From contig JAGLWM010000001.1 of assembly GCA_023133415.1 (NCBI GenBank), positions 13,207 through 77,206 of the forward strand: a stretch of DNA of 64,000 nucleotides, in the 5' to 3' direction. The position numbers and the translations under genes are program-made. The notes beneath the pieces are model-generated. The model searched no databases. It was given only the letters and a program-made list of their open reading frames with translations, and had not been told where the DNA came from. Origin of the DNA: Candidatus Pacearchaeota archaeon (GTDB taxonomy: Archaea > Nanobdellota > Nanobdellia > Pacearchaeales > GW2011-AR1). Of this stretch, positions 26,507-40,926 are shown piece after piece. The stretch's first letter is position 1. Each line of letters opens with the position of its first letter.

Positions 26507-27421
26507 TTAGTTAGTGGGAATAAGTTGTTCAAGAAGAGCCATTCTTATATAGAGACCATTCTCGGCCTGGCGAAAGTAGGCAACTCGTGGATCGTTTTGT
26601 TCTTTATAGAGGGATATGTCAATTTCTTCGACGTGCGGCAGTGGATGCATTATTCTGGCATCTTTCGGAATTAACTCAAGATTTGTATCATTTATGATAA
26701 ATTTACCCTTGGCTTTTTCGTAATCTTTTGGACTGATTCTTTCTTTTTGGATTCGGGTCATGTATACTATGTCGATGGTTGGCAATATTTTTTCGAGGTT
26801 GTCTTCTTCGGTGAATTTTATATTGTGTCGCTCGAGATAATCTTTGATATTTTGATTTATCTTTAGATTTTCTGGGGATATAAATATGATTTGGACTCCC
26901 GAGAATTTTCCGAAAAGGTAGCATAAGGATTGAACTGTTCTGCCTGAGGTGAGGTCGCCGACCATTGCGATTTTTATGTTATCGAGCCTACCAATTTCTT
27001 TATGGATTGTATATACATCTAAGAGAGCTTGAGTTGGATGTTGACCTTTGCCGTCGCCGCCGTTTATAATTGGAACGTTACTTACTTGTGATGCTTTTTC
27101 CGCAGAGCCTTCTTCGTTGTGTCTCATGACGATAGCGTCGGAGTATGATGCAATAACTCTAATTGTATCTGCCAAAGATTCTCCTTTTGAAACGGATGAG
27201 AACTCTCTGGCATTTTCGGTACCCATAATTTGCCCGCCCATCTTTAACATTGCTGATTCAAAGCTTAGTCGTGTTCGTGTGCTCGGCTCATAAAATAAAG
27301 TTGTTAGAACTTTTCCTTTTAGTGAATCACTCGGAGATATTCGAAGTTCCTCGGCTCGTTTAAAAAGTTTGAATAAAAGTTCTTTAGTAAATTGCTGTGA
27401 TTCAATTAGGTGCTTTGCCAT
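26507..27421 (-). CDS. pyrB: Aspartate carbamoyltransferase catalytic subunit
   Basis: STRTRLSFE, HPTQALLD and HPLP motifs. 304 aa. Confidence 0.9.
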   Translation of the reverse strand: MAKHLIESQQFTKELLFKLFKRAEELRISPSDSLKGKVLTTLFYEPSTRTRLSFESAMLKMGGQIMGTENAREFSSVSKGESLADTIRVIASYSDAIVMRHNEEGSAEKASQVSNVPIINGGDGKGQHPTQALLDVYTIHKEIGRLDNIKIAMVGDLTSGRTVQSLCYLFGKFSGVQIIFISPENLKINQNIKDYLERHNIKFTEEDNLEKILPTIDIVYMTRIQKERISPKDYEKAKGKFIINDTNLELIPKDARIMHPLPHVEEIDISLYKEQNDPRVAYFRQAENGLYIRMALLEQLIPTN

Positions 27422-27687
27422 TTCGATATTGAATAATTTTGGGTTTATAAATAATATGGGAATTGTGAATAAGTGATGAAGAACGATGGATATAAAGGCT
27501 TGATTGCTTGTTAATTTGTGTTTTTCAGCTTGTCATAATTTCAATCTACTCGCACTTCACTCTCGCTCAAGATAGTTTTATATTTATTAGTCGCAAGAGC
27601 AAAGGTGCTCTATTCGTTCTGAGCAATTCGTTGGGGTATTTATTTGTCAAACAGCTCAAAGTTTTACTCGCACTTCCTCGATGGAAT

Positions 27688-28869
27688 TTAACTTGTCATT
27701 ATCTCTATTCCATTTCGGTGCTTCAGGGGATGGTTTTTGCCTACGGGCTGTTTTGTTCTAACATCAATTGCTTTTACGAATTTGTCTCCGATGTCTGTGT
27801 GAAGCGAGTAGGCAAAATCGAGTGCAGTTGAGCCTTCTGGGAGCAGAAAGCAATCTGGTAAAATGTTACCTTTGCTGTCTGATAATTTTGAACCTGCTGG
27901 AAAAACCGCGATATATTTTAAAACATCAAATACGGCTTTGTCAAGGATTTCTTGAACTCCCGTTGAACCGAATTCGTCGAAGACATTTTTTTTAATTAAA
28001 TTTAGTGCTGTTTTTTGTCTTTCATTTACTTTACCCTCGTTGATTGTAAAAGATGAGTTACCTTGGACGTATTCGATCATTCCTGCATTTGCGGCTTGTC
28101 GCAGTGATAGTTCGGCGTCGGCGGAACATGCAATTATTTGCATGTTTGGAAATTCTGATTTTAATTTTTTGAGATTTTCTTTTGCACCTGATTTATCGAT
28201 TTTGTTCGCGACGATTAACATTGGTTTCGTTGAGTGCCTTAGCGTTTCTGTAAAATTTGATAAATCCTGTTCAGACCATGACGTTGGATTCTCCGGATTT
28301 AATTTTAACTTTATCAGGACTGACCTTACGTTTTCTTCGGTAACTCGTAAGCCTGAAAATTGTTTTGCGACCGCGGCCGCGAAGTTTTGTTTTGTTGTTT
28401 GGATTGTTCTGGATAGTTTGTCCCAGACTTTTTCGAATATCGCCCGGTACCATTTGTTTAGTTCGTTCTCTAGCATCCGGACGTCGGCTAGTGGATCGCC
28501 TATGCCTTCTTTGCCTTCGGTGTCTGTCGTTCCGGATGCGTCGACAATTTGGATGAACATGTCCGCTTGTCTTAATGAATCTAAAAATTTGTTTCCTAAT
28601 CCTTTGCCTTCGGAAGCACCTTCCACTAGTCCCGCGACATCCATTAGCTCGACTGGGACAAATCGTGTTTCTCCTGTGCAGAATCCTGTTCGCGGGTTAC
28701 ATCTTACACCGAGTTCTTTGCAGAGTGCGTCGACTCGAACGTAACCGATTCCGTGGTTTGGCTCGATTGTTGCGAAGGGATAGGATGCGATAAGGACGTC
28801 TGATAGCGTGGCTGCCTTGAAGAATGTTGATTTTCCGCATGATGGTTTACCGACCAGTCCTAATAGCAT
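27688..28869 (-). CDS. ychF: YchF/Obg-like GTPase with a C-terminal TGS domain
   Basis: GLVGKPSCGKSTFF (P-loop), YPFATIEPNHG, DVAGLV, NKID and a TGS-like C-terminus. Confidence 0.8.
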   Translation of the reverse strand: MLLGLVGKPSCGKSTFFKAATLSDVLIASYPFATIEPNHGIGYVRVDALCKELGVRCNPRTGFCTGETRFVPVELMDVAGLVEGASEGKGLGNKFLDSLRQADMFIQIVDASGTTDTEGKEGIGDPLADVRMLENELNKWYRAIFEKVWDKLSRTIQTTKQNFAAAVAKQFSGLRVTEENVRSVLIKLKLNPENPTSWSEQDLSNFTETLRHSTKPMLIVANKIDKSGAKENLKKLKSEFPNMQIIACSADAELSLRQAANAGMIEYVQGNSSFTINEGKVNERQKTALNLIKKNVFDEFGSTGVQEILDKAVFDVLKYIAVFPAGSKLSDSKGNILPDCFLLPEGSTALDFAYSLHTDIGDKFVKAIDVRTKQPVGKNHPLKHRNGIEIMTS

Positions 28870-28921
28870 GAAGTTAAAGTGATAAGAAGGTTTTTATATC
28901 TTTTTTTGTGACTAGTTTTGT

Positions 28922-29038
28922 GAGCCTGTAGCTCAGCCTGGTCAGAGCGCTAGTCTTATAAGTCTGCAGTCCTTCGGGGTTGTAATTGCTTTCGTCTAAG
29001 AAAGCTAGAGGTCCGGGGTTCAAATCCCCGCAGGCTCA
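28922..29038 (+). tRNA. tRNA-Ile(UAU) with a 42-nt intron after position 37
   Basis: Acceptor GAGCCTG/CAGGCTC. D arm GCTC-AGCCTGGTCA-GAGC. Anticodon stem CTAGT/GCTAG with loop CTTATAA (TAT at 28957-28959). Intron 28961-29002. T arm CGGGG-TTCAAAT-CCCCG. Discriminator A. Confidence 0.75.
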
Positions 29039-29225
29039 TGATTGCTGGGATTGAACCCTCGGGGTTTACTATAAGTATGACTCTATCTTGTGAGCCTCAA
29101 ATCCCCGCAGGCTCATATTTGCTGGGATTGAACCCTCGGGGTTTACTATAAGTATGACTCTATCTTGTGAGCCTCAAATCCCCGCAGGCTCATATTTGCT
29201 GGGATTGAATCCTCGGGGTTTAATA
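29039..29225 (+). repeat. 2.4 tandem 76-77-bp repeats, each ending with a copy of the tRNA-Ile 3' end
   Basis: CAAATCCCCGCAGGCTCAT occurs at 29021-29039 (in the tRNA), 29098-29116 and 29174-29192. Each extra copy is preceded by TTGTGAGCCT, which equals the tRNA 5' leader plus acceptor strand. Confidence 0.9.
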
Positions 29226-29299
29226 ATTTCATATGATTAATTTGTAGATATGCGTTCAAAAAAATAAAAATTTATTCTAACATGCAAGAAAATTTAGGA

Positions 29300-30256
29300 T
29301 TATTTTTTACAAATAACTAGGGTATAAGATCCGTCTTCAGATATCTTCATATCTACTTCATTAAAATACATATTTAAAATTTCAACAAGATCTTTCTTTT
29401 TATACTTGTATGATAATAATACTAAAAACTTATCTCCTGTTTTGAATTCTATTTTTTTCCCATATAATTCGATGGTTTTATCGATTTTGAGATTGTAATA
29501 AATCTCGATTCTGGATTCTTTTAGTTTAATATCCATCTCGAGTTCTTCTTCTTTGAAACCGAGACCTTTGGGGATGTTTATTAGTAATTGTTCTAATGTT
29601 GCTGATTTTTTGTATAGTTCGAGTATTTTCTGTGGCTTTTTGGTCAAAATGTTATTTCCCAAAATCAATAAATCTCCTTCTTTCATGGATCTTCGAATAT
29701 TATATAAAATTTCATGGATTTCTAAATTTTCTATTGTGCTTCCGAGAAGTAAGAATATATTTTTTTGATATTCTTTGTAGCGGACAGATTTTGAAATATT
29801 TTCAATGTTATCAAAATCGGAGATAATCCACTGCATTTTAATAACTTCTTTTGGGTTTTCTTTTCTAACTGTGTCTATGGCCGCTTCTATTAGATTACTG
29901 TTAATATCGACGGGACAGTATCTAATATTAAAATTTTTTAATTTTTGGATGATTTTTGCAGCTTTTTTTCCACTGCCGCATCCAAGATCGACAATATTTA
30001 TGGACTTGTCTTTAATTTTATTTTTGATGTTCTTGATATTGTTATTGATAATATTCATTTCCTGAGAATCTATTTCTTTTTGATATTTGGACTTTCCTTC
30101 AAAATCAAAAAATGCTTGTGGCTGTTCTTCTGAACAAAAAAGAAGTTTGGAATCCGCAAGATTCCATATTTTAGAACCCTTTTTTTCGGAGTGTCCTTTC
30201 CTGATTAGTTCTTTAAAAATTAGATCATTGATTTTCTGGCTTTCGTTCTTTACCAT
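29300..30256 (-). CDS. SAM-dependent methyltransferase, EgtD-like (Methyltransf_33-like) architecture
   Basis: IVDLGCGSGKKAAKI, YCPVDIN, ISDFDN and FLLLGSTIENL follow the order of motifs remembered for histidine-specific MTase-like proteins. Confidence 0.5.
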   Translation of the reverse strand: MVKNESQKINDLIFKELIRKGHSEKKGSKIWNLADSKLLFCSEEQPQAFFDFEGKSKYQKEIDSQEMNIINNNIKNIKNKIKDKSINIVDLGCGSGKKAAKIIQKLKNFNIRYCPVDINSNLIEAAIDTVRKENPKEVIKMQWIISDFDNIENISKSVRYKEYQKNIFLLLGSTIENLEIHEILYNIRRSMKEGDLLILGNNILTKKPQKILELYKKSATLEQLLINIPKGLGFKEEELEMDIKLKESRIEIYYNLKIDKTIELYGKKIEFKTGDKFLVLLSYKYKKKDLVEILNMYFNEVDMKISEDGSYTLVICKK

Positions 30257-30440
30257 AATATTTATGGTTATTTTTGGTTTTTATGTGTTTGTATTTATTG
30301 TCGGGAGGTAACAGGGGTAAATAGAGGATGGGATAACTATTTAAGTAAACGGGGATTTTTAGTGAGAATATCAAGGGGCTTATTTTGACGAATATTGTCT
30401 TTCTCTGATATTGATATTAGATGAAAGGAGTAATAATAAG

Positions 30441-30632
30441 ATGAACGAAAGAAGATTTGACAATAGAGGAAGCAATTTCAGTAGAGGAAGCAAATTTGAT
30501 AGGGGGCCTATGAAAATGCACAAGGCAATATGTTCTAAGTGCGGGAAGGAATGTGAAGTGCCGTTTAAGCCTACTGAAGGGAGAGATGTTTTTTGTAAAG
30601 AATGTTTTGCCAGCAATAGACCTAGAAGATAG
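30441..30632 (+). CDS. Small CxxC-x17-CxxC zinc-ribbon protein with an RG-rich N-terminus
   Basis: CSKCGKECEVPFKPTEGRDVFCKECF. AAGGAG lies 11 nt upstream of ATG 30441. The tracked ORF starts earlier, at a TTG. Confidence 0.6.
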   Translation: MNERRFDNRGSNFSRGSKFDRGPMKMHKAICSKCGKECEVPFKPTEGRDVFCKECFASNRPRR

Positions 30633-30878
30633 TTTTTAGGTTGTTGGTGGGGTTTTTGTTTTTTATTTTTTATTTTTTTATTTATTTCCTTTGGGATATT
30701 CTTTAAGTATTAATATTCCATGTTTTCCATCAAATGTTGCTATTTGGTATTATTTATAAAACTTTTATCTATTTTTAATACTGAATAGCATAATTTAGTC
30801 AAGTTTTGTCTAGATAGATTTTGGTCTTATTAAAAATAGGTTGCGAAAACTTAATAACTTGATTGTGGATTTTATTAG

Positions 30879-31490
30879 ATGATGATATATGAAACGGTGG
30901 TTTCTTTTTTGGTGGATTCGATTGGGGCGCTTGGATATGTGGGGATTTTTGTTCTTATGTTTCTTGAGAGTTCGTTTTTTCCGTTTCCTAGTGAGATTAT
31001 TATGATTCCTGCGGGTTATCTTGCGTATCAGGGGAAAATGAATTTAGTGTTGATAATTGGGATTGGGATTTTGGGTTCCGTCGCTGGGGCGTGGTTGAAT
31101 TATTTTTTGGCGGATAGATTTGGAAGGAAGTTGCTTTTGAAATTTTTGAAGGAGCATCATCTGAAAATGGTTGAGGATTTTTTTGAAAAGCATGGTCATA
31201 TTTCTACTTTTAATGGTAGGCTTATTCCTGTTATAAGGCAGTATATTTCTTTTCCTGCGGGTCTTGCTAAGATGAATCCTTTGAAATTTACATTGTATAC
31301 TGGACTTGGCGCGGGTATATGGATAACGATACTTGCATTTTTGGGTTATTTTCTTGGACAGAATGAGGCGTTGATTTATGAATATTTGAAAGAGGTAACT
31401 ATTTTTGTTTTAGTTTTTGTGTTGATTTTGACTATTGGTTATATTTATTTTAAAAAATATCTTTGTGGAAGTAGGGTTGGGAAAAATTGA
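30879..31490 (+). CDS. dedA: DedA family membrane protein
   Basis: [20 protein letters not shown] and [16 protein letters not shown] motifs. Confidence 0.8.
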
Positions 31491-32702: not shown

Positions 32703-32714
32703 ACGCTCCCACCG
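32703..32714. repeat. attL-like 12-mer ACGCTCCCACCG
   Basis: Identical to 40915-40926, the 3' end of tRNA-Glu. Confidence 0.7.
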
Positions 32715-32759
32715 ACAGAGTTTACAAAATGGTATAATCGGTGTATGTTGTTTGGTTCT

Positions 32760-33554
32760 TTAGTTAATAGCGAATACGATAATAAGAATAAGAATGGCAA
32801 CAATTACAGCAATGGTACTTACGAATAAGACTTTAAGAAAATTTTTAACTGTATGCTTGTCCCATAATGCGACTGCAAGAGTAATAATAGCTACAATAAA
32901 CATTAGCCATGAAGCCCACATCATACTTTTAGTTGCTTTATCTAAATCAATATTTAGCTCGAGTAGTTTTTCGTTTGCTTCTAGTGATTTTTTACTTGCT
33001 TTTAAGGACTCTTCTGCAGAATTAAATTCTTTTTCAAATAAGTCGTATTGCCATTTTGGCATACAATCAAAATATTTTTCATATACTAAGGGATATTGAT
33101 TAAACAAATTTTGAACCGAATAGCCTTTATTTAAAGTATAATTTTTAATAAAAATAATATCATTCGAGGTTATATTTATTTTATAATCTCCTACAGAATC
33201 GAACTTTATTATTTCTATCAATCCGTTGGTCTGATTTGGTATTAATTCTATGCTTTTGTTTACAAGAAGCTCTATTTGAGTATAATTTCTACAGCGTAAT
33301 TCAATTGGGGTATTAATACAAACATTAAAATCTTTAATTAATTTTTTTTCTCCAAGATTCGTTAAGTTTATTTTGTATGTAAAAGCGTCTCCTACAACAT
33401 TATAATCTAATGAGCTTGGTCCTCGTGGTTCTATCTGAATTTCAATATTTATATTGTCATAGGCTGAGACAATTGACACAGAAGGCAATAGTAAAAATAT
33501 TGCGACTACTATGTATATAATGTTTTTATCCATGGAAAATAAAAAACCTTCCAA
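32760..33554 (-). CDS. Element ORF: secreted protein with a C-terminal double TM anchor
   Basis: Signal-like N-terminus (IIYIVVAIFLLLPSVSIVSA), a beta-rich middle and two C-terminal TM helices. Confidence 0.45.
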   Translation of the reverse strand: MEGFLFSMDKNIIYIVVAIFLLLPSVSIVSAYDNINIEIQIEPRGPSSLDYNVVGDAFTYKINLTNLGEKKLIKDFNVCINTPIELRCRNYTQIELLVNKSIELIPNQTNGLIEIIKFDSVGDYKINITSNDIIFIKNYTLNKGYSVQNLFNQYPLVYEKYFDCMPKWQYDLFEKEFNSAEESLKASKKSLEANEKLLELNIDLDKATKSMMWASWLMFIVAIITLAVALWDKHTVKNFLKVLFVSTIAVIVAILILIIVFAIN

Positions 33555-33570
33555 TTTTTAGATTTAACTA

Positions 33571-34188
33571 TTAAACGCTTTCAAAAAACTTAACAGCAAA
33601 ATTACAAAAATCTATAATAGTTTCTTTATCCAAATCAAATTCTTTTCTTTTCCCTAAGTAGTTTTGAGTTTTTGGAGTCACTTCTTTCCCGTCCATTAAT
33701 TCCTGATATGTTATACATTTAATGTGCTTTTTCGAGACGACAATAAAATAAGCATTTTCAAAAGGATAGGTCTTTGGCAAGTCTTTTTTAGAGAATGTTT
33801 CGTTTGCCCTAAATTTTACTTCTACAAAATAAACATCTTTTCTTTCTGGATGTTGAACCACAAAATCTGGCATCCTTCTTATATTGTCTGCCACGTCACT
33901 GCGGACACCCTTTAGTAAATTCATTATGCCTGGGACTGTATTCTCCATTCCATATCTAAAAACATTATATCCTAAAGATAAAAATAATTCTTCGATTAAA
34001 GTTTCTGCGATTCTTCCCTTAATCATCCCTTCTCTGTATCTGCTTTCTTTATTGTTTAAACCTTTTTTCTCTTGAGGTTCGGAATTTTGTTGACAATCTC
34101 TACACAAAATCTTTCCAAATTCCTTTTTAGAATAATCATAGACCTTCTTTTCTATGTCTTTGTCACATTTTGAACAGTAGTAATCCAT
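33571..34188 (-). CDS. Element ORF: zinc-ribbon plus PD-(D/E)XK-like nuclease
   Basis: CSKCDK...CRDCQ at the N-terminus. E(IEELF)...MPDFVVQ...VYFVEVKF gives an E / PD / E-x-K arrangement. Confidence 0.5.
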   Translation of the reverse strand: MDYYCSKCDKDIEKKVYDYSKKEFGKILCRDCQQNSEPQEKKGLNNKESRYREGMIKGRIAETLIEELFLSLGYNVFRYGMENTVPGIMNLLKGVRSDVADNIRRMPDFVVQHPERKDVYFVEVKFRANETFSKKDLPKTYPFENAYFIVVSKKHIKCITYQELMDGKEVTPKTQNYLGKRKEFDLDKETIIDFCNFAVKFFESV

Positions 34189-34237
34189 GATTAATAGGTG
34201 ACTATATCATACTTAAATACTTCTGTCACAATCATAC

Positions 34238-34507
34238 TCAATCCAACTTTTTACTTTTATAAGAGTCTATTGCTTCTTGAGAAGATTTGAATGTTTTGGT
34301 GTTATCTAAATGCTTATTTTGCTCTATATGCATTTTCTCTCTTATTTCTAATTCGTTATTTTTAGACTTATCACTACTGTCTCTAATATAGCTATTTTTT
34401 TCTATGGTATCTTGGAGTTCCTCTAATTCATCATAAGGAATGTACCTTCTAGATGCCGGTTTAATAATTTTATCTGTTTCTCTGTGTCTTGTTTCAATAG
34501 TTACCAT
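34238..34507 (-). CDS. Element ORF: hypothetical acidic protein
   Basis: 89-aa ORF abutting the upstream ORF. Confidence 0.35.
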   Translation of the reverse strand: MVTIETRHRETDKIIKPASRRYIPYDELEELQDTIEKNSYIRDSSDKSKNNELEIREKMHIEQNKHLDNTKTFKSSQEAIDSYKSKKLD

Positions 34508-34768
34508 TTATTTATCATCTAGAAAGTCAGAATCGAGGTTCTTTTTCCATGCCAAAAATAATTCATTTTTGAATTTTACTATACGCCCCATGGCTTCATT
34601 TAACCTTTTCTCATTAGCTTCATTTTTATCATATTTTGCTAACTTTTGGATTGCCTTCATTTCTGTATCGCATTTATTCGAGAGTCTTTTTTTGAATGGC
34701 TCTAATCTATATCTAGATTGTTGATATTTTGAAAGAATCTCCTTATTCCCAATCTCCTTATTTGTCAT
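34508..34768 (-). CDS. Element ORF: hypothetical basic helical protein
   Basis: 86-aa ORF. Its stop is adjacent to the next start. Confidence 0.35.
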   Translation of the reverse strand: MTNKEIGNKEILSKYQQSRYRLEPFKKRLSNKCDTEMKAIQKLAKYDKNEANEKRLNEAMGRIVKFKNELFLAWKKNLDSDFLDDK

Positions 34769-34799
34769 GATTTAAAGACTCCTTAGAACTATAAAAATA

Positions 34800-35054
34800 T
34801 TATTGTGCTATTGTTTTCACTAGCCCCTCACCCTTCTTAGTTCTCCGATAAAGCCTATGTCTCTTCTCCTCTGGGTTTAAACATTCAATCAACTTCCTTT
34901 CCATTAAGGAGATAAGAATATTGCTGATATATCCTAAATTAAGCTCCACTTCTTTAGATATCTCCGTAGGCGTTTTAGGTTTTGATAACGCTAAAAATAC
35001 CTTTTTCCTATTTTCACTTCTTATAACAAAACTATAGTCGCCCCAGTTTTTCAT
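34800..35054 (-). CDS. Element ORF: winged-helix transcriptional regulator
   Basis: RKKVFLALSKPKTPTEISKEVELNLGYISNILISLMERKLIECL...RLYRRTKKG is a typical wHTH. A 7-bp inverted repeat AAGTATT-T-AATACTT lies in its upstream region (~35078-35092). Confidence 0.6.
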   Translation of the reverse strand: MKNWGDYSFVIRSENRKKVFLALSKPKTPTEISKEVELNLGYISNILISLMERKLIECLNPEEKRHRLYRRTKKGEGLVKTIAQ

Positions 35055-35113
35055 AAATAGAAGTGCTTATAAAGTATTTAATACTTAAACGAGTGATACA
35101 CGAGTAATCTAAA

Positions 35114-35530
35114 ATGGCTAAAGAAAAAGATAACAGTTGGATAAAATGGTTAATTGTAGCGGTGTTTCTTTTTGCTGTAATTATTGTTAGTTTAAATTTC
35201 GGAGATAATGAAAACGAATATATTTCCCATACTTCTAGAGAGGTTTATACTTATTCTGGGAATGTGACTAATGTAGCTAATACTAATGAAGAAACTTTAG
35301 AAAGAATAGTTTTTTCTGGCATGAATCAAAATTCAGAAGTTAGTAGTGCTAATCCTAGTTTAGTTGTGGTATCTGGGATGGACAATAATATTAAATTTAT
35401 AAAAAACTCTAATCCTAAAGAAATTACACTAGGTGGAATGAGAAATAAGATTATTCTTTGTAGAGATATTCATAGTCCTAAAATAGATAATTCTGGATTA
35501 AATAATGAAGTGGATTATGTTAATTGCTAA
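35114..35530 (+). CDS. Element ORF: membrane-anchored protein with SGM.N repeats
   Basis: N-terminal TM helix (WLIVAVFLFAVIIVSL). Repeated FSGMNQN / VSGMDNN / LGGMRNK / NSGLNNE motifs. Confidence 0.4.
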   Translation: MAKEKDNSWIKWLIVAVFLFAVIIVSLNFGDNENEYISHTSREVYTYSGNVTNVANTNEETLERIVFSGMNQNSEVSSANPSLVVVSGMDNNIKFIKNSNPKEITLGGMRNKIILCRDIHSPKIDNSGLNNEVDYVNC

Positions 35531-35871
35531 TCTGACTTTAGCCTAACTCCACATTTCTTATTGGGACAACATCCGTCTTCAAACTCATCAAACCAAGCCC
35601 CACACTTCTCACACTTCCACTTATACGACGCATCTGCCTCTTCTTCCGTTATTGTCGTTTTTCTCGCTTTTTCTACGGGATATACGACTTTTAGTGCTCT
35701 TAGTTCTTTTAGCTCTGCTTTTTCTTCTACTTTCTCTTTCCCATATTGTTTTCTTATAACATCGTGCTCCAAAATTGGAAACTTCTTATAGCAACAAGTA
35801 AAATTAACATAGTGATTATGTTTGATTTTCTTGACTTTCTCACATATAGGACACTTTACTACCCTTGCCAT
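35527..35871 (-). CDS. Element ORF: double zinc-ribbon protein
   Basis: CPICEK...CC at the N-terminus and CEKCGAWF...CCPNKKCG at the C-terminus. Confidence 0.45.
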   Translation of the reverse strand: MARVVKCPICEKVKKIKHNHYVNFTCCYKKFPILEHDVIRKQYGKEKVEEKAELKELRALKVVYPVEKARKTTITEEEADASYKWKCEKCGAWFDEFEDGCCPNKKCGVRLKSD

Positions 35872-35907
35872 TTGGTTACTTTGGTTATTTTAGTTATCAT
35901 AGTTATT

Positions 35908-36558
35908 TTAGTAATTTGGGTTATTTAGTAATAAATTTGTAAAATATAACGGACTATCAATATTTGTTAATCCGCAATTATGAATACTCTTAGTTAGTGA
36001 GGATGGAACAATTAAGCTCATAAAAACAAAATCTTTTCTGATGGTTCTAATTGGTTTTTTGGATTTTATATTATTTAGAAATACTCTTCTAAAATCTTCA
36101 TCTCTCCAAAACATTTCTTTATGTTTTTCATAATCCTTGAAGTCTTTAGATTCTAAGCTATATCTGTCAATCATTCCTTCCTTTTTGAAAACTTCTTTTG
36201 TCATTAATATTTTTTCAAACATTTCTTTAAACGAACCTACGACATCTTTGTGACTTTTGTCAATAAATCTTTCAAGAACAGCATTAATGAATCTGGTTTC
36301 TTCTCCATCAAAATTTCCGAGAGGGAATAAATCAGCTTTGTATAATTTTTTATTACAGGTTATTTTATTTGTGTGGGTTTGCCTAATCATTTTAGCATTC
36401 AATAATTCTAAAATCCATTTATGAATTGTTCCTCTCTGATTAGGATTGTTATAAATTAAAATTGCCAAGTCTGTCTCTGACATATCTTCACATAGAAGTA
36501 ATCCGTAAATCTTTCTAGGAATTTCTTTGTTTAGTAATTCAATTGTACTATTCGCCAT
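35908..36558 (-). CDS. Element ORF: protein with an N-terminal wHTH-like domain
   Basis: SETDLAILIYNNPNQRGTIHKWILELLNAKMIRQ. 216 aa. Confidence 0.4.
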   Translation of the reverse strand: MANSTIELLNKEIPRKIYGLLLCEDMSETDLAILIYNNPNQRGTIHKWILELLNAKMIRQTHTNKITCNKKLYKADLFPLGNFDGEETRFINAVLERFIDKSHKDVVGSFKEMFEKILMTKEVFKKEGMIDRYSLESKDFKDYEKHKEMFWRDEDFRRVFLNNIKSKKPIRTIRKDFVFMSLIVPSSLTKSIHNCGLTNIDSPLYFTNLLLNNPNY

Positions 36559-36585
36559 ATAACTGTACTGTCTAAGTACAGTTAT
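36559..36585. promoter_or_regulatory. Perfect 11-bp inverted repeat (ATAACTGTACT-N5-AGTACAGTTAT) in a divergent promoter region
   Basis: Read directly from the sequence. It starts 1 nt upstream of start codon 36556-36558 of the minus-strand gene and lies before the plus-strand RHH-like gene. Confidence 0.5.
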
Positions 36586-36697
36586 AAACTTTGTGTTTTT
36601 AGGTCGAATATGGAAGAAATAGAAAACAAACTAAATAAGCTTCAATCAAAGATGGACGCCTTAGAGTTGAGATTGATGAGGAAGCTAATGAACGGAA

Positions 36698-36901
36698 ATG
36701 AAAAAGAACTCCCAACTCCATGTAGTTATTGAAACTCATAAACTTAATCGATTAAAAGAGGAGGCGAAGGAGCAAAGAGTTTCCTTGTCGGAATTGTGTC
36801 GGCAAAAATTGAAACCTCGACCTCAAATGGATAGGATTGAAAATAAGCTGGATAAATTATTGAAGAATGGAAAAAATGGAGGCAATGCCTCCAAAAAATA
36901 A
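36698..36901 (+). CDS. Element ORF: ribbon-helix-helix-like small protein
   Basis: QLHVVIETHKLNRLKEEAKEQRVSLSELCRQKL follows a beta-strand/helix/helix pattern. Confidence 0.4.
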   Translation: MKKNSQLHVVIETHKLNRLKEEAKEQRVSLSELCRQKLKPRPQMDRIENKLDKLLKNGKNGGNASKK

Positions 36902-36925
36902 AAATAGCCTTAACCCATCATGAAA

Positions 36926-37435
36926 TTATTCGTAACGGGTCGCCGTCCTTTTCCAGGAAAATTTCGGCAAGTCTTTGAGATAATTATTGTCCCAACACCA
37001 CTCTATAACAATTTCTTGAGAGCGTCCGTCTGGATTATCCTCTTTAGTAGTTTTTGTTAACTTTTTTAGGCTTTTTTTAATTGCTTCAGGCATCTTAGAC
37101 GCTATCGTCTTTGCTGAGTCAATAATTTTCAAACAATTCCTTTTTAGGTCTTTGTTAAAGTCGTCAATATTTCCATATTTACCATCAGATTTTTCAGCAA
37201 CAGGGAAAGACCTAGACCTTCCACCTTTACTTCTTACTGAAAGCAAGCCATATGGTTTTATGTATTCTGTAACATATCTACCAACTTGATTTCGTGGCTT
37301 CTTAATTCCGCGAGCGATTTCGGTAATAGTAACCCCTTTCTCTGCTACCACTGGGCTATTTTTTACATAGTAAACAATTCTGCTTACTAAATCTAAATCA
37401 ATACGTGGGTGTTCAGTCACCAATTTTGTATTCAT
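36926..37435 (-). CDS. Element ORF: wHTH DNA-binding protein
   Basis: VSRIVYYVKNSPVVAEKGVTITEIARGIKKPRNQVGRYVTEYIKPYGLLSV. Confidence 0.45.
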   Translation of the reverse strand: MNTKLVTEHPRIDLDLVSRIVYYVKNSPVVAEKGVTITEIARGIKKPRNQVGRYVTEYIKPYGLLSVRSKGGRSRSFPVAEKSDGKYGNIDDFNKDLKRNCLKIIDSAKTIASKMPEAIKKSLKKLTKTTKEDNPDGRSQEIVIEWCWDNNYLKDLPKFSWKRTATRYE

Positions 37436-37717
37436 ATTAAGTAATAGGGCGAGTAAGTAAAAAGCGCATCACCCCCTCCTCCTTTCAAAACTGCTAAGAT
37501 TCCAAAGTCAATCAAAACACTTAAATACAATCTTTCGTACGTATATTTGTCTAGAATATTTGTAGAAAGATTGTTTTTCTTACTTGAATTTAGTTGGTTA
37601 ATATTATTTTTCATGATAAAATATCAAAATTAATTAGATTTATATACTTCCGAAGACTTAGACTATTGTAACGAGAGGCTAGTTTTGACGGAAGTGTTGA
37701 AGCTAGTTTCTTTATTT

Positions 37718-38140
37718 TTAACTTTGATGATGCCCCTTTAATTTATATTTAAACATACCATCTACTTTTTTTCTGTCGAGCTCTCCCCTTCTAGATAACA
37801 TTGTTAATGTGGGGTGTAAGCTACTATTCGGCATTGGAGTATTACTTGAAAATTCTATTTTTTCCCTTATTTCTTTTAGTGTTTTAAAATCTTCTAAAAA
37901 TCCATCCTGTATCAATTTTCTAATTTCTTTTATTGGACTTAGTTTCTTGTGATGGATATTTTCATTGTAATTGTTATAAATTTCTTCCTCAAAACGTCTA
38001 TGTCTAAATTCAAGGTCTCTTCTGAACATAAATTCTCTCTTTTGAATGTCTCGGATAACTGAAGATACTTCTGATGGACTTCCCTCTATGTTTATTTTTA
38101 ATCCAGTTGAGCTTCTTACTTCGGCATTCATTTTATCCAT
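37718..38140 (-). CDS. Element ORF: hypothetical protein with a C-terminal wHTH-like segment
   Basis: SSLHPTLTMLSRRGELDRKKVDGMFKYKL. Confidence 0.35.
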   Translation of the reverse strand: MDKMNAEVRSSTGLKINIEGSPSEVSSVIRDIQKREFMFRRDLEFRHRRFEEEIYNNYNENIHHKKLSPIKEIRKLIQDGFLEDFKTLKEIREKIEFSSNTPMPNSSLHPTLTMLSRRGELDRKKVDGMFKYKLKGHHQS

Positions 38141-38376
38141 GCATATTTATACAAATCACCCTTTATAAATGTTTGTATAAGTTAGTTGATATTTTGACTA
38201 TTTTCCAGGTAAAACACCATATTTATGCCATATTTCTATATAACTTCTATATAATTATATTATTTCTTAAAAATTCGTCTAAGTACAAATAACTCTCCCT
38301 TGCCCCACTCTGTCAAATCTTTCTTCTTTTCCAAATCCAAACTATCAAGATAACTTTCCAAAGTTCATCCAATAAC

Positions 38377-39570
38377 TTACCCTTGATTAATAATTGCCTG
38401 GGCTTGTGCATTTTCTAACCTCCCGAATACAATATCAACTCTGTCTATCGTCTCAATAAACGTATCTAGACGCCCCTCAATAGCCGTCAGTCGCTCTTCC
38501 ATCATCTCCTTGGACTTATCGACCTCTTGGAGTTTTTGCTCTATCTCGGTCTTCGTAGTGTCTAGAAACATATCGTCCTCTTGGATTGTATCTTTCATCC
38601 CGAGAAGTTCAGAATAATAATGAATTTTATCGGATTTCTTCCAGCCAAATCTATATTTCAAAGCTGATTCAGATTTATACCTTGGAAGCCAATAACAACA
38701 AGAGCAATGCCGAAAATCATACATTGTTAAGTTCTTATATTGTTTTCCTGCCTCACTCATCTCATTACCGAAAACTCTTTTTGCTAGACGCTTTAGGTAT
38801 TTGTTTGCCGAGAAAGGCTGGATAATAAAAAGATAGTCTTCTGGTTTTAGCTCTTTTTCTCTGACATAACTTTCTACTAATTCGGAAGAAAGCATAAGCT
38901 TTATTCTTCGTCCAAAAGTTTTACTTACTTCATCCCGAACATTAACTTCTTTGAAATTATTGTATAAGTCAGAAACCCTGATGTTCATTAATTCGCTTGG
39001 GGCTCTCATTCCTGTGTCAAATAAAAACATAATCATAACTTTGTATTCCCATTTTGTATTGTCGCATAATTTCTTGATTTGCTCTTCGGTTAGGTATACC
39101 CATTTTGGCTTTTCTCCTCTAACATCTAGGTCAAGGGTTATATCTAGAATTTCTACCCCATTTTTTCTATTAACTATTTGGTGCCAATGCCAGAAGGCTT
39201 TGAAGATTTTAACAAAGGTGGGAATTGATAGATAGGTTTTCCCATCTTGCCTAACAATTTCACCCTTTCTCATTCTTGAAAAAAATAACATTATTTGCTC
39301 TTCTCTGATTTTAGTTATATCATTTAGGCTATATATCTCATGAAATTTATTAGAGAAATAAACCATCTTTTCTGCTAAGGAATTTAATCTAATATAGCTT
39401 CGTCCACCCTTGACGCTCTTCGATGAGACGTTAAGTCCGTGTTCCATGTCGTGAAGATATTGTTTTATTATTTCGGAGTTCTTTTTGCTGATGCCTGGGA
39501 TTCCTTTTGCGGTTTTCTTTTCCCATCGCTCCCATCTTTCTTTATGTTTATACGGGTCTATCTTTTCCAT
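38377..39570 (-). CDS. Tyrosine recombinase/integrase
   Basis: DTGMRAPSEL (Arg I region), MYDFRHCSCCYWL (H-x-x-R region) and the C-terminal HYYSELLG (catalytic Tyr region). Adjacent to the tRNA att site. Confidence 0.75.
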   Translation of the reverse strand: MEKIDPYKHKERWERWEKKTAKGIPGISKKNSEIIKQYLHDMEHGLNVSSKSVKGGRSYIRLNSLAEKMVYFSNKFHEIYSLNDITKIREEQIMLFFSRMRKGEIVRQDGKTYLSIPTFVKIFKAFWHWHQIVNRKNGVEILDITLDLDVRGEKPKWVYLTEEQIKKLCDNTKWEYKVMIMFLFDTGMRAPSELMNIRVSDLYNNFKEVNVRDEVSKTFGRRIKLMLSSELVESYVREKELKPEDYLFIIQPFSANKYLKRLAKRVFGNEMSEAGKQYKNLTMYDFRHCSCCYWLPRYKSESALKYRFGWKKSDKIHYYSELLGMKDTIQEDDMFLDTTKTEIEQKLQEVDKSKEMMEERLTAIEGRLDTFIETIDRVDIVFGRLENAQAQAIINQG

Positions 39571-39665
39571 AAAAATCTTAGATAAAAATTCTTTATATAA
39601 AACTTGTAGAAGTGTTGTAGGCTTACAATAGTTGTAGGCGATTTTGGGAAAATAAGAATTAAATT

Positions 39666-40805
39666 TTACTTAGTTTCTTTATATTGAAAATCATAATTTC
39701 TAGTAGTTATGGTTTCAACTACTTTGACAACTTCTATAATTAATTGTTTTGCTCTCTTCTTGTCTGTATCCATTTTTACAATTGACCTTAATACTGGAAA
39801 CTTGTCCGAGGTCATGTAAGTGGGCTTTGGTTTATGTTCTCCCTTTAATGATACCATATAAGCAGGAACTACTATCTCTGGAAGAATCTTATGTAAATTT
39901 GAATGAATGTAATTATTTCTTATATGGTTTTTTATTTCCAAGAGATAGTTCTTTTCCTTTTCTATAATAATTTCTTCCTTTAAACAATCGGATAATAAAT
40001 TCTCTAAATCGTTTTCATAGTGTTCTTTTTTCTTATAATACCACATTTCTTTCAAAAATGATTCTATAAAGATTGAAAGCATACATATGGAGGCATTAAA
40101 GTTACCAAACCAAAAATTGCTAACTGCCTCATAGTACAAAGATTTATTTTCTATCTCTAAATGTATTTTATCATTAAGAATTGGTAACTCTCTAATCCTG
40201 TCAACGATTTCGTCTTTTTTATTCGAAAATGTTTCATATATCTTTTCTGCTTCATCTTTTTTTAGAAAATATTCTTCTTTCTTAATCTTTTTTTTATCTA
40301 ACTTCTTTTGTTTTAATATTAATTCGCTAAACTCTTTTATTGCTTTATTCAGATGTTTAATATGTTCTGAATCTTCTGAGAATCCTCTCTTTATCATTTT
40401 TTCTTTTTTATATAGGAATCTTTCCCTTTGGGCTAATAGATTTAACATAGATACAAACTCAGAAGGATTTTTTTGCGATTCAACATTAAAATTAATTTGT
40501 AGATTTTCAAAATATTCAGCTATTTTGTGTATATTATTATTTTCATCCTTAAAGGATTGAAATAATTTAGAGTCTCCCTTATGTTTTAAAAATTCCTCTT
40601 GACCGATTACCCCTTTATCAAATAAATAATCTATCAAGGTTTCTATATTGCACTCATTTTTAATCTCTCTTGCTATATAGTGGTATGTATCGTTTTTTGT
40701 TGCAACAAAATTTTTTAGAAACCCTTCCTCTATGTCTTTTTTCATAAGCTCAAATTCCTGTCTTAATTTTGCTATATCTTTTACTGGATTAGATTCTTTA
40801 GTCAT
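39666..40805 (-). CDS. Element ORF: coiled-coil protein with a C-terminal HEPN-like domain (RNxxxH)
   Basis: The C-terminal half reads YYEAVSNFWFGNFNASICMLSIFIESFLKE....LLEIKNHIRNNYIHSN. R-N-x-x-x-H is the HEPN signature (DNA ~39.90-39.93 kb). Confidence 0.45.
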   Translation of the reverse strand: MTKESNPVKDIAKLRQEFELMKKDIEEGFLKNFVATKNDTYHYIAREIKNECNIETLIDYLFDKGVIGQEEFLKHKGDSKLFQSFKDENNNIHKIAEYFENLQINFNVESQKNPSEFVSMLNLLAQRERFLYKKEKMIKRGFSEDSEHIKHLNKAIKEFSELILKQKKLDKKKIKKEEYFLKKDEAEKIYETFSNKKDEIVDRIRELPILNDKIHLEIENKSLYYEAVSNFWFGNFNASICMLSIFIESFLKEMWYYKKKEHYENDLENLLSDCLKEEIIIEKEKNYLLEIKNHIRNNYIHSNLHKILPEIVVPAYMVSLKGEHKPKPTYMTSDKFPVLRSIVKMDTDKKRAKQLIIEVVKVVETITTRNYDFQYKETK

Positions 40806-40914
40806 AGGAATTCAAATAACCTATTTTATTTAAGTCTTGACATCCCCTAAAAATCGACGGAGCGTGGGCACTTTTTGTCCATCGGAAATCCCTAGAATAT
40901 ACCGAAATGGGGAA

Positions 40915-40926
40915 ACGCTCCCACCG
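40915..40926. repeat. attR-like 12-mer ACGCTCCCACCG (tRNA-Glu 3' end)
   Basis: Identical to 32703-32714. Confidence 0.7.

What the first reader, a model, noticed from the sequence alone, without database searches (positions are those of the whole stretch)
29021..29225. Tandem 76-77-bp repeats that each rebuild a tRNA-Ile acceptor mini-helix
Directly after tRNA-Ile, the 19-mer CAAATCCCCGCAGGCTCAT (T-loop/3' acceptor strand, discriminator and one base) recurs at 29098-29116 and 29174-29192. Each extra copy is fused to TTGTGAGCCT, the 10 nt that span the tRNA 5' leader and 5' acceptor strand. So every unit contains a GAGCCT-loop-AGGCTC-A mini-helix. The rest of the unit carries shuffled echoes of the tRNA intron region (CCCTCGGGGTT vs CCTTCGGGGTT; CTATAAGT vs CTTATAAGT). 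A third unit is truncated at ~29225. Possible origins are serial integration and excision scars at a tRNA att site, or replication-slippage copies. The units could also be functional tRNA-like mini-helices, for example decoys or substrates for RNase P or the CCA-adding enzyme, or att sites kept for an integrase.
Basis: seen in the sequence. Interest (0 to 1): 0.6.

Follow-up and report, generated by a model that had tools for sequence, protein, structure and literature searches.

The report
RtT-like repeats behind archaeal tRNA-Ile
The three 77-base repeats after this archaeal tRNA-Ile gene are partial copies of the tRNA's own tail, each split in the T-loop by a small dispersed hairpin element; this layout is common at tRNA genes in these tiny archaea and matches the classic RtT repeats behind the E. 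coli tyrosine tRNA genes.

Summary
An intron-containing tRNA-Ile(UAU) at 28922-29038 is followed by 2.6 copies of a 77-bp unit, each ending in the tRNA's last 19 nt.

The interpretation needs changing:
- **Unit anatomy.** Each unit holds an inverted copy of the T-arm, a direct copy of the T-stem 5' strand plus TT, a 31-nt hairpin module, and then the T-loop-to-discriminator copy. It is a pseudo 3' third of the tRNA, split between T55 and C56.
- **GTGAGCCT box.** The box that looks like the tRNA 5' acceptor belongs to the module. It ends related modules at tRNA-Cys, tRNA-Lys and another tRNA. Among 37 comparable downstream copies, only these two rebuild an acceptor helix.
- **How common it is.** In this genome 12 of 34 tRNAs carry a downstream copy of their 3' end; upstream controls give 0. 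In relatives the count is 19 of 80.
- **Closest analogue.** The 178-bp tyrT/RtT repeats of E. coli, re-examined here, have the same architecture.

Most likely origin: template switching at the T-stem inverted repeat, capture of a dispersed hairpin module, then unequal recombination between 47-bp repeats.

The parts
28886..28921 (+). tRNA-Ile promoter region (TTTTTATATC box) and leader ending in TTTTGT before the acceptor stem
   Evidence: Read from the sequence. The same upstream block is conserved in relatives' tRNA-Ile loci. Promoter function is inferred.
28922..29038 (+). tRNA-Ile(UAU) with a 42-nt intron at the canonical position (intron 28961-29002); discriminator A at 29038
   Evidence: Rfam RF00005 scores 59.5 bits. 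ARAGORN with introns confirms the call.
29021..29039 (+). Reference copy of the 19-mer: T-loop C56 to the discriminator, plus one T
   Evidence: Exact matches located.
29040..29116 (+). Unit 1. Spacer 29040-29046; inverted T-arm copy GGGATTGAACCC 29047-29058; direct T-stem 5' strand plus TT (CGGGGTT) 29060-29066; family-B module 29067-29097; 3'-end copy 29098-29116
29117..29193 (+). Unit 2, same anatomy shifted by 77 nt: inverted T-arm 29124-29135; CGGGGTT 29137-29143; module 29144-29174; 3'-end copy 29175-29193
   Evidence: 75 of 77 positions are identical to unit 1.
29194..29222 (+). Truncated unit 3: spacer, inverted T-arm copy (one C>T at 29210) and CGGGGTT(T). It stops exactly where a module would begin
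   Evidence: The same terminal half-unit is seen after tRNA-Cys (C17) and tRNA-Arg(UCG).
29067..29097 (+). Family-B hairpin module: TAC-TATAA-GTA hairpin, ATGAC, a degenerate CTC..GAG hairpin, and the CCT end (the GTGAGCCT box)
   Evidence: nhmmer finds homologues only at tRNA-Cys C17:2428-2495 and tRNA-Ser(GGA) C13:5703-5770 in this genome. The pattern ATGACYCT-N(3-25)-GRGCCTC gives 31 hits against 3 control hits in 301 genomes of the order. Contexts are shown.
32703..40926 (-). For contrast, not part of the array: an 8.2-kb integrated element in tRNA-Glu, bounded by the 12-bp direct repeat ACGCTCCCACCG. It carries a 397-aa tyrosine integrase at 38377-39570
Evidence: Repeat confirmed. Integrase matches Pfam PF00589.

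Best explanation
The array is a local tandem amplification of a 'pseudo 3' third' of tRNA-Ile that carries a small dispersed hairpin module in its T-loop.

**Shown.**
- Each unit is: spacer, then an inverted copy of the T-arm, then a direct copy of the T-stem 5' strand plus T54-T55, then a 31-nt family-B module, then a direct copy from C56 to the discriminator.
- The host-derived pieces track the host tRNA at every locus (Ile, Cys, Ser).
- The module, including its GTGAGCCT(C) end, is shared between unrelated tRNAs and genomes.
- The layout is a lineage-wide feature of tRNA genes in these Pacearchaeota/Woesearchaeota-type archaea.
- It is the same layout as the E. coli tyrT/RtT 178-bp repeats.

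**Inferred.**
1. The direct-inverted-direct triplication of the T-arm arose by replication template switching at the T-stem inverted repeat, with the small AACCC-TC-GGGTT hairpin as the turn-around point.
2. The module was copied into the non-essential T-loop from another locus. The enzyme or pathway is unknown.
3. Unequal recombination or slippage between the 47-bp direct repeats that flank a module raised the count from the 1.5 units seen at tRNA-Cys to 2.5 units here.
4. The array is co-transcribed as the tRNA-Ile trailer and removed during 3' processing. The acceptor-like mini-helix is a by-product: the module's end box happens to match the GAGCCT acceptor of tRNA-Ile.
For: **Anatomy and coordinates.**

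**Homologous units at other tRNAs.** Units with host-specific T-stem copies (CTGGG for Cys, CAGG for Ser) and the same module box sit at tRNA-Cys and tRNA-Ser(GGA). The same box joins directly to the T-loop remainder of other tRNAs in relatives: GAGCCTC|AAATCC at a tRNA-Lys (L111) and GAGCCTC|GATTCC (L127). L111 carries three tandem 25-nt sub-modules.

**Generality.**
- A downstream copy of the last 9 nt occurs at 12 of 34 own tRNAs and 19 of 80 relatives' tRNAs, against 0 upstream controls. Identity blocks are 9-22 nt, so they start in the T-loop or T-stem.
- An inverted T-loop 11-mer lies just downstream at 18 of 113 tRNAs, against 0 upstream.

**Turnover at the orthologous site.** Relatives of the same genus have no insert, or different modules, behind tRNA-Ile(UAU). 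G004 shares the inverted T-arm and turn-around hairpin but carries another module.

**Spread of modules between loci.** Copies of the second, more abundant module type in this genome (the ~64-nt hairpin called family A in the full report) are up to 94% identical at unrelated tRNAs.

**The mini-helix is local.** Only 2 of 37 copies have it.

**E. coli analogue, tested here.** There are 3.1 copies of a 178-bp unit. Each ends in the 19-nt tRNA-Tyr 3' end and contains an inverted T-arm copy (19 of 22 nt), then a direct variable-arm/T-stem/T-loop copy, then a ~64-nt insert. These are the Rfam RtT units.

**No terminator in the array.** The first run of 4 or more T on the sense strand lies 264 nt past the discriminator.
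Against: - No direct evidence for any step of the proposed origin. Template switching and module capture are inferred from the end product only.
- The 10-mer TTGTGAGCCT shared with the tRNA leader is somewhat unlikely by chance (p about 0.004-0.016 against shuffles). The family box accounts for only 8-9 of those bases, so a historical origin of the box from a tRNA-Ile 5' end is not excluded.
- Family-A hairpins are strand-specific: the sense strand is more stable in 15 of 15 copies, with 2-5 G.U pairs each. Module helices also covary (CTC/GAG against CCC/GGG). Both point to selection on a single-stranded form (RNA or ssDNA), which a purely neutral by-product would not need.
- The E. coli analogue yields a stable processed RNA.
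- Copy number and expression could not be checked against reads.
Confidence: 0.55

Rival explanations
1. The units are functional RtT-like small RNAs. The tRNA-Ile transcript reads through the array. tRNA-end enzymes (tRNase Z, possibly RNase P and the CCA-adding enzyme) recognise the pseudo 3' ends, helped here by the GAGCCT/AGGCTC mini-helix. They release 77-nt or roughly 26-30-nt RNAs that act as regulators or enzyme decoys.
For: - The tested E. coli analogue has the same architecture and is annotated as a processed small RNA (rttR) whose 3' end coincides with the pseudo-CCA end.
- The array has no oligo-T terminator.
- Module helices covary, and family-A hairpins are strand-specific with G.U pairs.
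- A consensus four-way-junction fold with an 8-nt 3' tail can be drawn for the Ile, Cys and Ser units.
Against: - The mini-helix is unique to this locus (2 of 37) and is not used in the minimum-free-energy fold. The unit's folding energy is ordinary (z = -1.5; Cys -0.2, Ser -0.7).
- Orthologous tRNA-Ile loci in the same genus have different modules or none, so no conserved product is tied to this tRNA.
- No Rfam family matches.
- The covariation in the outer stem is expected anyway, because one strand is an inverted copy of the other.
- No expression data are available.
Confidence: 0.17
2. The repeats are att-site scars or retained att sites of tRNA-targeting tyrosine integrases. Elements integrated repeatedly into the T-loop of tRNA-Ile, and deletions left only element ends between duplicated att cores.
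For: - An identity block running from the T-loop to the tRNA 3' end is the classical footprint of T-loop-class integrases (established knowledge).
- The genome has six tyrosine-recombinase matches.
- tRNA-Ile(UAU) is an integration hot spot. In the closest related locus, synteny breaks inside this tRNA next to a 370-aa integrase.
- A real integrated element sits in tRNA-Glu 3.5 kb away.
Against: - Only 58 nt lie between att-like copies.
- The host-like T-stem copy lies upstream of the module rather than next to the identity block, as an attP core would.
- The same module sits behind many different tRNAs, each with perfectly host-specific flanks. One site-specific integrase cannot produce that.
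- Module sequences have no exact match in IMG/VR.
- The inverted T-arm copy is not explained.
Confidence: 0.12
3. The module is a miniature non-autonomous transposon, comparable to REP/RAYT elements, IS200/IS605-derived PATEs or the palindromic elements of Rickettsia. It is moved in trans by a hairpin-recognising single-strand DNA enzyme that targets T-loop-like TT|C sites. The tRNA-end duplication is part of how insertions survive.
For: - Precise junctions at TT|C of the T-loop at the Ile, Cys, Ser, L111 and L127 loci.
- Short copies of the motif lie outside tRNA contexts, some in frame inside ORFs, often followed by CAAA or CGAA.
- Hairpins are strand-specific with G.T/G.U pairs.
- Y1 transposases occur in some relatives.
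Against: - No Y1 transposase in this genome, and only 5 of 26 relatives have one.
- No terminal inverted repeats and no fixed-length target duplication.
- Near-identical family-A copies join their hosts at different positions.
- No autonomous copy was found.
Confidence: 0.13
4. Assembly artefact: one unit was inflated to 2.6 by the assembler.
For: The genome is a short-read metagenome bin. Related repeats sit at several contig ends, so they do disturb assembly.
Against: The three copies are individually tagged: GA against AT at 29040-41, and C>T at 29210. The same 1.5-unit layout is assembled independently at tRNA-Cys and tRNA-Arg. Comparable arrays occur in many independent assemblies.
Confidence: 0.03

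Closest known systems
E. coli tyrT/tyrV 178-bp repeats (RtT RNA, Rfam RF00391; rttR/tpr locus)
   Same: Re-examined here on NC_000913.3.
- Tandem units (3.1 copies) lie directly behind a tRNA gene.
- Each unit ends with the tRNA's last 19 nt, starting in the T-loop.
- Each unit contains an inverted copy of the T-arm (19 of 22 nt), followed by a direct copy of the variable-arm end, T-stem and first T-loop bases, and then an insert.
- The unit is therefore a pseudo 3' third of the tRNA split in the T-loop, as it is here.
   Different: - No sequence or covariance-model similarity: RtT does not hit the window at E<=1.
- The unit is 178 bp rather than 77 bp, with a GC-rich ~64-nt insert.
- The E. 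coli copy includes the encoded CCA.
- The E. coli unit encodes a processed RNA and a small ORF (tpr). Expression of the archaeal units is unknown.
- The E. coli repeats belong to one locus. The archaeal layout occurs at about a third of tRNA genes, with interchangeable modules.
att-site duplications made by tRNA-targeting tyrosine integrases of archaeal and bacterial integrative elements
   Same: A direct repeat of a tRNA 3' segment whose left edge lies in the T-loop or T-stem. The tRNA gene stays intact. tRNA-Ile(UAU) and tRNA-Glu of this lineage are real integration sites.
   Different: No element body or integrase lies between the repeats (58 nt). There is an inverted T-arm copy. The module sits inside the pseudo T-loop. 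The same module serves many different tRNAs with host-specific flanks.
Small dispersed palindromic repeats (REP/BIME and REPINs, Rickettsia palindromic elements, MITE-like repeats)
   Same: A short hairpin-forming module is present at many loci and in many genomes. Its stems covary, it occurs in tandem copies, and it is sometimes in frame inside ORFs.
   Different: - Strong association with the T-loop of partial tRNA copies.
- No terminal inverted repeats.
- No RAYT/Y1 transposase in this genome.
Non-canonical archaeal tRNA introns, and split or permuted tRNA genes
   Same: Extra sequence interrupts tRNA-derived sequence at the T-loop. The lineage has intron-containing tRNAs.
   Different: - The interrupted copy is only a 3' third, and it lies downstream of a complete gene.
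- No bulge-helix-bulge motif can be drawn at the junctions.
- In family A the TTC of the T-loop is missing, so splicing could not restore a tRNA.
- The real introns of this genome are unrelated in sequence.

Membership tests
RtT / tyrT-type tRNA-trailer repeats | Tandem units directly downstream of a tRNA gene, each ending with the tRNA's 3'-terminal ~19 nt | tested here: met
   77 bp x 2.6 with 19-mers at 29021, 29098 and 29175. The E. coli control has 178 bp x 3.1 with a 19-mer in each unit.
RtT / tyrT-type tRNA-trailer repeats | The unit contains an inverted T-arm copy, then a direct T-stem/T-loop copy, then an insert before the 3'-end copy | tested here: met
   In the window: GGGATTGAACCC, CGGGGTT, 31-nt module, CAAAT.... 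In E. coli: a 19 of 22 nt inverted match, a direct match and a ~64-nt insert.
RtT / tyrT-type tRNA-trailer repeats | Homology to the Rfam RtT covariance model (RF00391) | tested here: not met
   No RtT hit in window 27000-31000 at E<=1, nor in 17 related loci. The model finds 4 units in the E. coli control. The relation is analogy of architecture, not family membership.
RtT / tyrT-type tRNA-trailer repeats | A discrete RNA processed out of the tRNA transcript | not testable with these tools
The only supporting fact is that the array has no oligo-T terminator.
Integrase att-site scar / integrated element | Direct repeat of a tRNA 3' segment bounding the inserted DNA | tested here: met
   19-nt repeats.
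Integrase att-site scar / integrated element | Element body with an integrase between the repeats, or unique DNA matching the end of a known element | tested here: not met
   58 nt lie between the repeats with no ORF. Exact module patterns are absent from IMG/VR. The bona fide tRNA-Glu element in the same window serves as the contrast.
tRNA intron (bulge-helix-bulge) or split tRNA | Splicing of the insert restores a complete tRNA; bulge-helix-bulge motif at the junctions | tested here: not met
   The interrupted copy lacks tRNA positions 1-48. The junction sequences are not complementary. Family-A copies lack TTC of the T-loop.
MITE / REP-like mobile repeat | Many dispersed copies with a conserved structure | tested here: met
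   31 pattern hits against 3 control hits in 301 genomes. 15 family-A copies in this genome, up to 94% identical at unrelated tRNAs.
MITE / REP-like mobile repeat | Terminal inverted repeats with a fixed target duplication, or a cognate transposase (for example Y1/RAYT) | tested here: not met
   No terminal inverted repeats. Duplicated host segments range from 9 to 47 nt. PF01797 is absent from this genome and present in 5 of 26 relatives.
   This holds only for the two units in this window. The other 35 copies have 1-4 nt of identity.

The most novel reading that the evidence does not exclude
Pacearchaeota-type archaea use the trailers of about a third of their tRNA genes as expression platforms. 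Pseudo T-arm scaffolds present interchangeable hairpin modules. tRNA-end enzymes cut them into stable small RNAs with tRNA-like 3' ends, an archaeal and much expanded counterpart of E. coli RtT. The tRNA-Ile units, which uniquely also rebuild an acceptor mini-helix, would be CCA-tagged mini-helix RNAs.
Probability: 0.12. Interest if true: 0.7.

Novelty: new variant of a known kind. Interest (0 to 1): 0.45.

Why it matters
- **Re-reading of an attractive motif.** What looked like a designed tRNA mini-helix array is one instance of a genome-wide, lineage-wide habit. Partial tRNA tails are copied in a direct-inverted-direct pattern behind the gene, and their T-loops host small dispersed hairpin modules.
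- **Practical consequences.** These structures break assemblies: several contigs of this bin end in them. They mimic integrase att sites, and they can mislead tRNA and mobile-element annotation in DPANN genomes.
- **A shared mechanism?** The architecture matches the long-known but mechanistically unexplained E. coli tyrT/RtT repeats. That suggests a common, enzyme-independent mutational route at the T-stem inverted repeat in both bacteria and archaea, and it gives RtT its first structural counterpart outside enterobacteria.
- **If transcribed and processed.** The modules would be a new class of tRNA-linked archaeal small RNAs.

Tried and rejected
- **Known RNA families.** None matches the units or modules at E<=1.
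- **K-turn, C/D-box, H/ACA and hammerhead readings.** Checked by eye on the module sequences and rejected. The required GA/AG registers or boxes are absent.
- **T-loop intron or split-tRNA reading.** Rejected. There is no bulge-helix-bulge motif, the interrupted copy is only a 3' third, and the real introns are unrelated.
- **Unit as an internally deleted tandem tRNA-Ile gene with its promoter.** The local alignment does not extend beyond the 10-mer. Eight to nine of those bases are the family box seen at other tRNAs.
- **Array as the boundary of the neighbouring low-GC island.** Rejected. The integrated element ends at 32703 and belongs to tRNA-Glu.
- **Viral or plasmid origin of the modules.** No exact matches in IMG/VR.
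- **Dedicated enzymes.** No Y1 transposase in this genome. One reverse transcriptase here and in only 8 of 26 relatives. Six tyrosine recombinases are present, but none is linked to the array.
- **The integrase of the nearest relative's tRNA-Ile locus.** It has no close homologue here.
- **Literature.** Four full-text searches found no description of this arrangement in DPANN archaea. The library does not hold the classical tyrT papers.
Full report
**Observation**

The window comes from an 836-kb, 21-contig DPANN genome. Its relatives are labelled Pacearchaeota, Woesearchaeota or Nanoarchaeota.

At 28922-29038 lies a tRNA-Ile with anticodon UAU and a 42-nt intron at the canonical position. Rfam scores it at 59.5 bits, and ARAGORN with introns agrees. 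Default ARAGORN missed it.

Tandem Repeats Finder reports 2.6 copies of a 77-bp unit at 29020-29222 with 97% matches. TTGTGAGCCT occurs at 28918, 29088 and 29165. Units 1 and 2 differ at 29040-41. Unit 3 carries a C>T at 29210 and ends at 29222. The copies are therefore individually tagged, which argues against assembler inflation.

**Anatomy of a unit**

Compared with the tRNA's own 3' third, each unit reads as follows:
- a 7-nt spacer;
- GGGATTGAACCC, an inverted copy of the T-arm GGGGTTCAAATCCCC with small deletions;
- a 2-nt turn;
- CGGGGTT, a direct copy of the T-stem 5' strand plus T54-T55;
- a 31-nt module, TACTATAAGTATGACTCTATCTTGTGAGCCT;
- CAAATCCCCGCAGGCTCA(T), a direct copy from C56 to the discriminator.

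The unit is thus a pseudo 3' third of tRNA-Ile, preceded by an inverted T-arm and split between T55 and C56 by an insert.

**The locus is not unique**

- A search of the whole genome with the region found a 70%-identical stretch on contig 17. There, tRNA-Cys is followed by a homologous unit, a 12-nt copy of the tRNA-Cys 3' end, and the same terminal half-unit.
- A profile built from these sequences finds a third copy behind tRNA-Ser(GGA) on contig 13 and nothing else in the genome.
- In all three loci the host-derived pieces follow the host. The direct T-stem copy is CGGGG for Ile, CTGGG for Cys and CAGG for Ser, and the inverted arms match. The module keeps its own features: a short hairpin, ATGAC, a second hairpin CYC...GRG, and CCT(C).
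- The pattern ATGACYCT-N(3-25)-GRGCCTC occurs 31 times in 301 genomes of the order, against 3 hits for the reversed control.
- Among the hits, a tRNA-Lys (L111) carries three tandem 25-nt sub-modules ending GAGCCTC|AAATCCCCCCGGGGCCA. Another tRNA (L127) ends GAGCCTC|GATTCC....

The GAGCCT that seemed to copy the tRNA-Ile 5' acceptor strand is therefore the module's own end box. It stands in front of 3' ends that it cannot pair with.

**Testing the mini-helix idea directly**

Among 37 downstream 3'-end copies in this genome and in 80 related loci, only the two units of this window have 5 or more nt of 5'-acceptor identity immediately upstream. All the others have 1-4 nt.

The 10-mer shared with the tRNA leader is moderately unlikely against shuffles (p about 0.004-0.016). 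However, 8-9 of its bases are the family box. The minimum-free-energy fold of a unit does not use the mini-helix, and the folding energy is ordinary (z = -1.5).

**A lineage-wide habit**

- In this genome, 12 of 34 analysable tRNAs have a copy of their last 9 nt (at most one mismatch) within 300 nt downstream. None has one upstream.
- In the flanks of 80 related GTPase loci, the count is 19 of 80 against 0.
- Identity blocks are 9-22 nt long, so their left edge lies in the T-stem or T-loop.
- An inverted copy of the T-loop 11-mer lies within about 0-40 nt after 18 of 113 tRNAs, against 0 upstream.

Most loci in this genome carry a different, more abundant module, called family A here. It is a ~64-nt hairpin, CAATTTGCTCGAATTTT...AAAATTTTAGAGTGAATTGTGAG, which folds far better than shuffles (z = -4.7).
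- It is always more stable on its sense strand (15 of 15 copies, mean 5 kcal/mol), with 2-5 G.U pairs.
- Copies at unrelated tRNAs are up to 94% identical, for example Lys-UUU against Ser-UGA.
- Several contigs end inside these modules.

Behind the orthologous tRNA-Ile(UAU), members of the same genus have no insert, a family-A module, or other modules. One relative (G004) shares the inverted arm and turn-around hairpin with this window but has a different module at the same TT|C junction. So the scaffold can be older than the module, and modules turn over quickly. I reached the same picture independently here and add family B.

**What it is not**

- No Rfam family matches.
- It is not a spliceable T-loop intron or a split tRNA. 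The interrupted copy lacks positions 1-48, no bulge-helix-bulge motif can be drawn, family-A copies have lost TTC of the T-loop, and the genome's real introns are unrelated.
- It is not a plain integrase scar. A genuine one lies in the same window: an 8.2-kb element with a 397-aa tyrosine integrase, bounded by the 12-bp repeat ACGCTCCCACCG at 32703 and 40915 in tRNA-Glu. The array has 58 nt between its repeats, no exact match in IMG/VR, and a module shared by many tRNAs with host-specific flanks.

tRNA-Ile(UAU) is nevertheless an integration and rearrangement hot spot:
- In most relatives the Obg-like GTPase gene follows the tRNA on the same strand. Here it is divergent.
- In the closest locus, synteny stops at tRNA position 15, and a 370-aa integrase follows.

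Candidate dedicated enzymes are not consistently present. There is no Y1 transposase here, and only 5 of 26 relatives have one. There is one reverse transcriptase here, and 8 of 26 relatives have one.

**Closest known case**

From memory, the E. coli tyrT locus carries 178-bp repeats that each contain the tRNA-Tyr 3' end and give rise to rtT RNA. I tested this on NC_000913.3.
- Behind tyrV there are 3.1 copies of a 178-bp unit, each ending in AATCCTTCCCCCACCACCA.
- Each unit contains an inverted copy of the T-arm region (19 of 22 nt). This is followed immediately by a direct copy of the variable-arm end, T-stem and TTCGA, then a ~64-nt insert, then the 19-mer.
- These are the Rfam RtT units (four hits).
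- The annotated rttR RNA ends at the pseudo-CCA end.
- A preprint summarises rtT as a product involved in tyrT transcript processing and possibly the stringent response (10.1101/2024.07.17.603846).

The architecture is the same as in the archaeal units. The sequences and covariance model are not related.

**Mechanism (inferred)**

1. The direct-inverted-direct arrangement of the T-arm, with a tiny turn-around hairpin at a natural palindrome (CCGG in tRNA-Ile), is what two replication template switches at the T-stem inverted repeat would give. This would be a miniature of the duplication/inverted-triplication/duplication rearrangements known from human genomics (from memory).
2. It creates a dispensable pseudo T-arm followed by a second 3' end.
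3. Hairpin modules then appear in that T-loop. They may be copied from other loci through the conserved T-loop bases, or inserted by an unidentified hairpin-specific enzyme. The data do not decide between these. Near-identical family-A copies join their hosts at different positions, which fits neither model perfectly.
4. The module is flanked by 47-bp direct repeats (C56 to CGGGGTT). Unequal recombination or slippage between them converts the 1.5-unit state seen at tRNA-Cys and tRNA-Arg(UCG) into the 2.5 units seen here.
5. The sense strand has no run of 4 or more T until 264 nt past the discriminator. The array is therefore probably transcribed as the tRNA-Ile trailer and cut off by 3' processing.

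**Function**

The strand-specific, covarying hairpins and the RtT precedent keep a processed-RNA function open. The rapid turnover at orthologous sites, the ordinary folding energy of the Ile unit, and the local nature of the mini-helix speak against a conserved role for this array. I put about 0.55 on the by-product/amplified-module reading and about 0.17 on a functional RtT-like RNA. The rest is split between integrase scars, a true miniature transposon and an assembly artefact.

**Verdict**

The mini-helix design idea is not supported. The array is a new archaeal variant of the RtT-type tRNA-trailer repeat, and one member of an apparently undescribed, widespread class of T-loop-split partial tRNA copies in DPANN archaea.

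Noticed in passing
window 28922-29038: AUA is apparently read by a genomically encoded tRNA-Ile(UAU) with a 42-nt intron. The genome also has three CAU tRNAs. Default (bacterial) ARAGORN missed the gene.
   Followed up: partly
window 32703-40926: An 8.2-kb integrated element in tRNA-Glu, bounded by the 12-bp direct repeat ACGCTCCCACCG. It carries a 397-aa tyrosine integrase (38377-39570) and mostly unrecognisable small ORFs. It served as the contrast case for a true att duplication.
   Followed up: partly
L025 (JAUWIJ010000002.1), upstream of the GTPase gene: In the closest related locus, tRNA-Ile(UAU) is reduced to its promoter plus positions 1-15 and anticodon-loop fragments in direct and inverted orientation. 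A 370-aa integrase gene follows, so a different element sits inside the same tRNA.
   Followed up: partly
G000 contigs C3 (end), C4 (start), C5 (start), C11 (start), C8 (start): Several contigs of the bin begin or end inside family-A hairpin modules next to tRNA 3' ends. C4 starts with two tandem modules that end in the tRNA-Ser(GCU) tail found at the start of C8. These repeats fragment the assembly.
   Followed up: no
G000:C10:2546-2722 (upstream of tRNA-Phe): A pseudo-copy of tRNA-Phe positions 1 to about 40 is followed by a family-A module in reverse orientation and then a degenerate variable-loop/T-arm copy. The module here interrupts a partial tRNA copy in the anticodon stem rather than the T-loop.
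   Followed up: no
L128, L105, L113, L120, L106, L131 (relatives): Short family-B motifs (CCC..GGG-ATGACYCT-NNN-GRGCCTC) also occur away from tRNAs. Some appear to lie in frame inside coding regions: reading as ..GDDSGEP.. in what looks like a P-type ATPase, and as ..EAQQSHPLGK.. on the other strand near two apparent protein N-termini. The protein readings come from my own translation of the flanks. I did not check whether orthologues lack the segment.
   Followed up: no
G000:C2:32695, C4:22346, C15:28845, C3:35201, C18:40091: A further module type begins ...GTGAATAAAACGCTTTGAG. It is a full long hairpin on C2 and C4, and only the 5' half is present at the ends of the tRNA-Arg, tRNA-Lys and tRNA-Ile(GAU) trailers. 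It follows a direct T-stem copy in each case.
   Followed up: no
L151 (E. coli NC_000913.3 1286000-1288300): Each RtT/tyrT 178-bp unit contains a 19 of 22 nt inverted copy of the tRNA-Tyr T-arm region next to a direct copy. I have not seen this inverted-triplication layout pointed out for this classic locus.
   Followed up: partly
G000:C12:5237-5824: The genome's single reverse-transcriptase match, in a 371-aa ORF. Its type (for example diversity-generating retroelement or group II intron) was not examined.
   Followed up: no
window 25772-26230 (-): A 152-aa ORF matches the 'putative phage metallopeptidase' family (PF18894, E = 9e-20). It sits next to aspartate carbamoyltransferase in an otherwise housekeeping stretch.
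   Followed up: no
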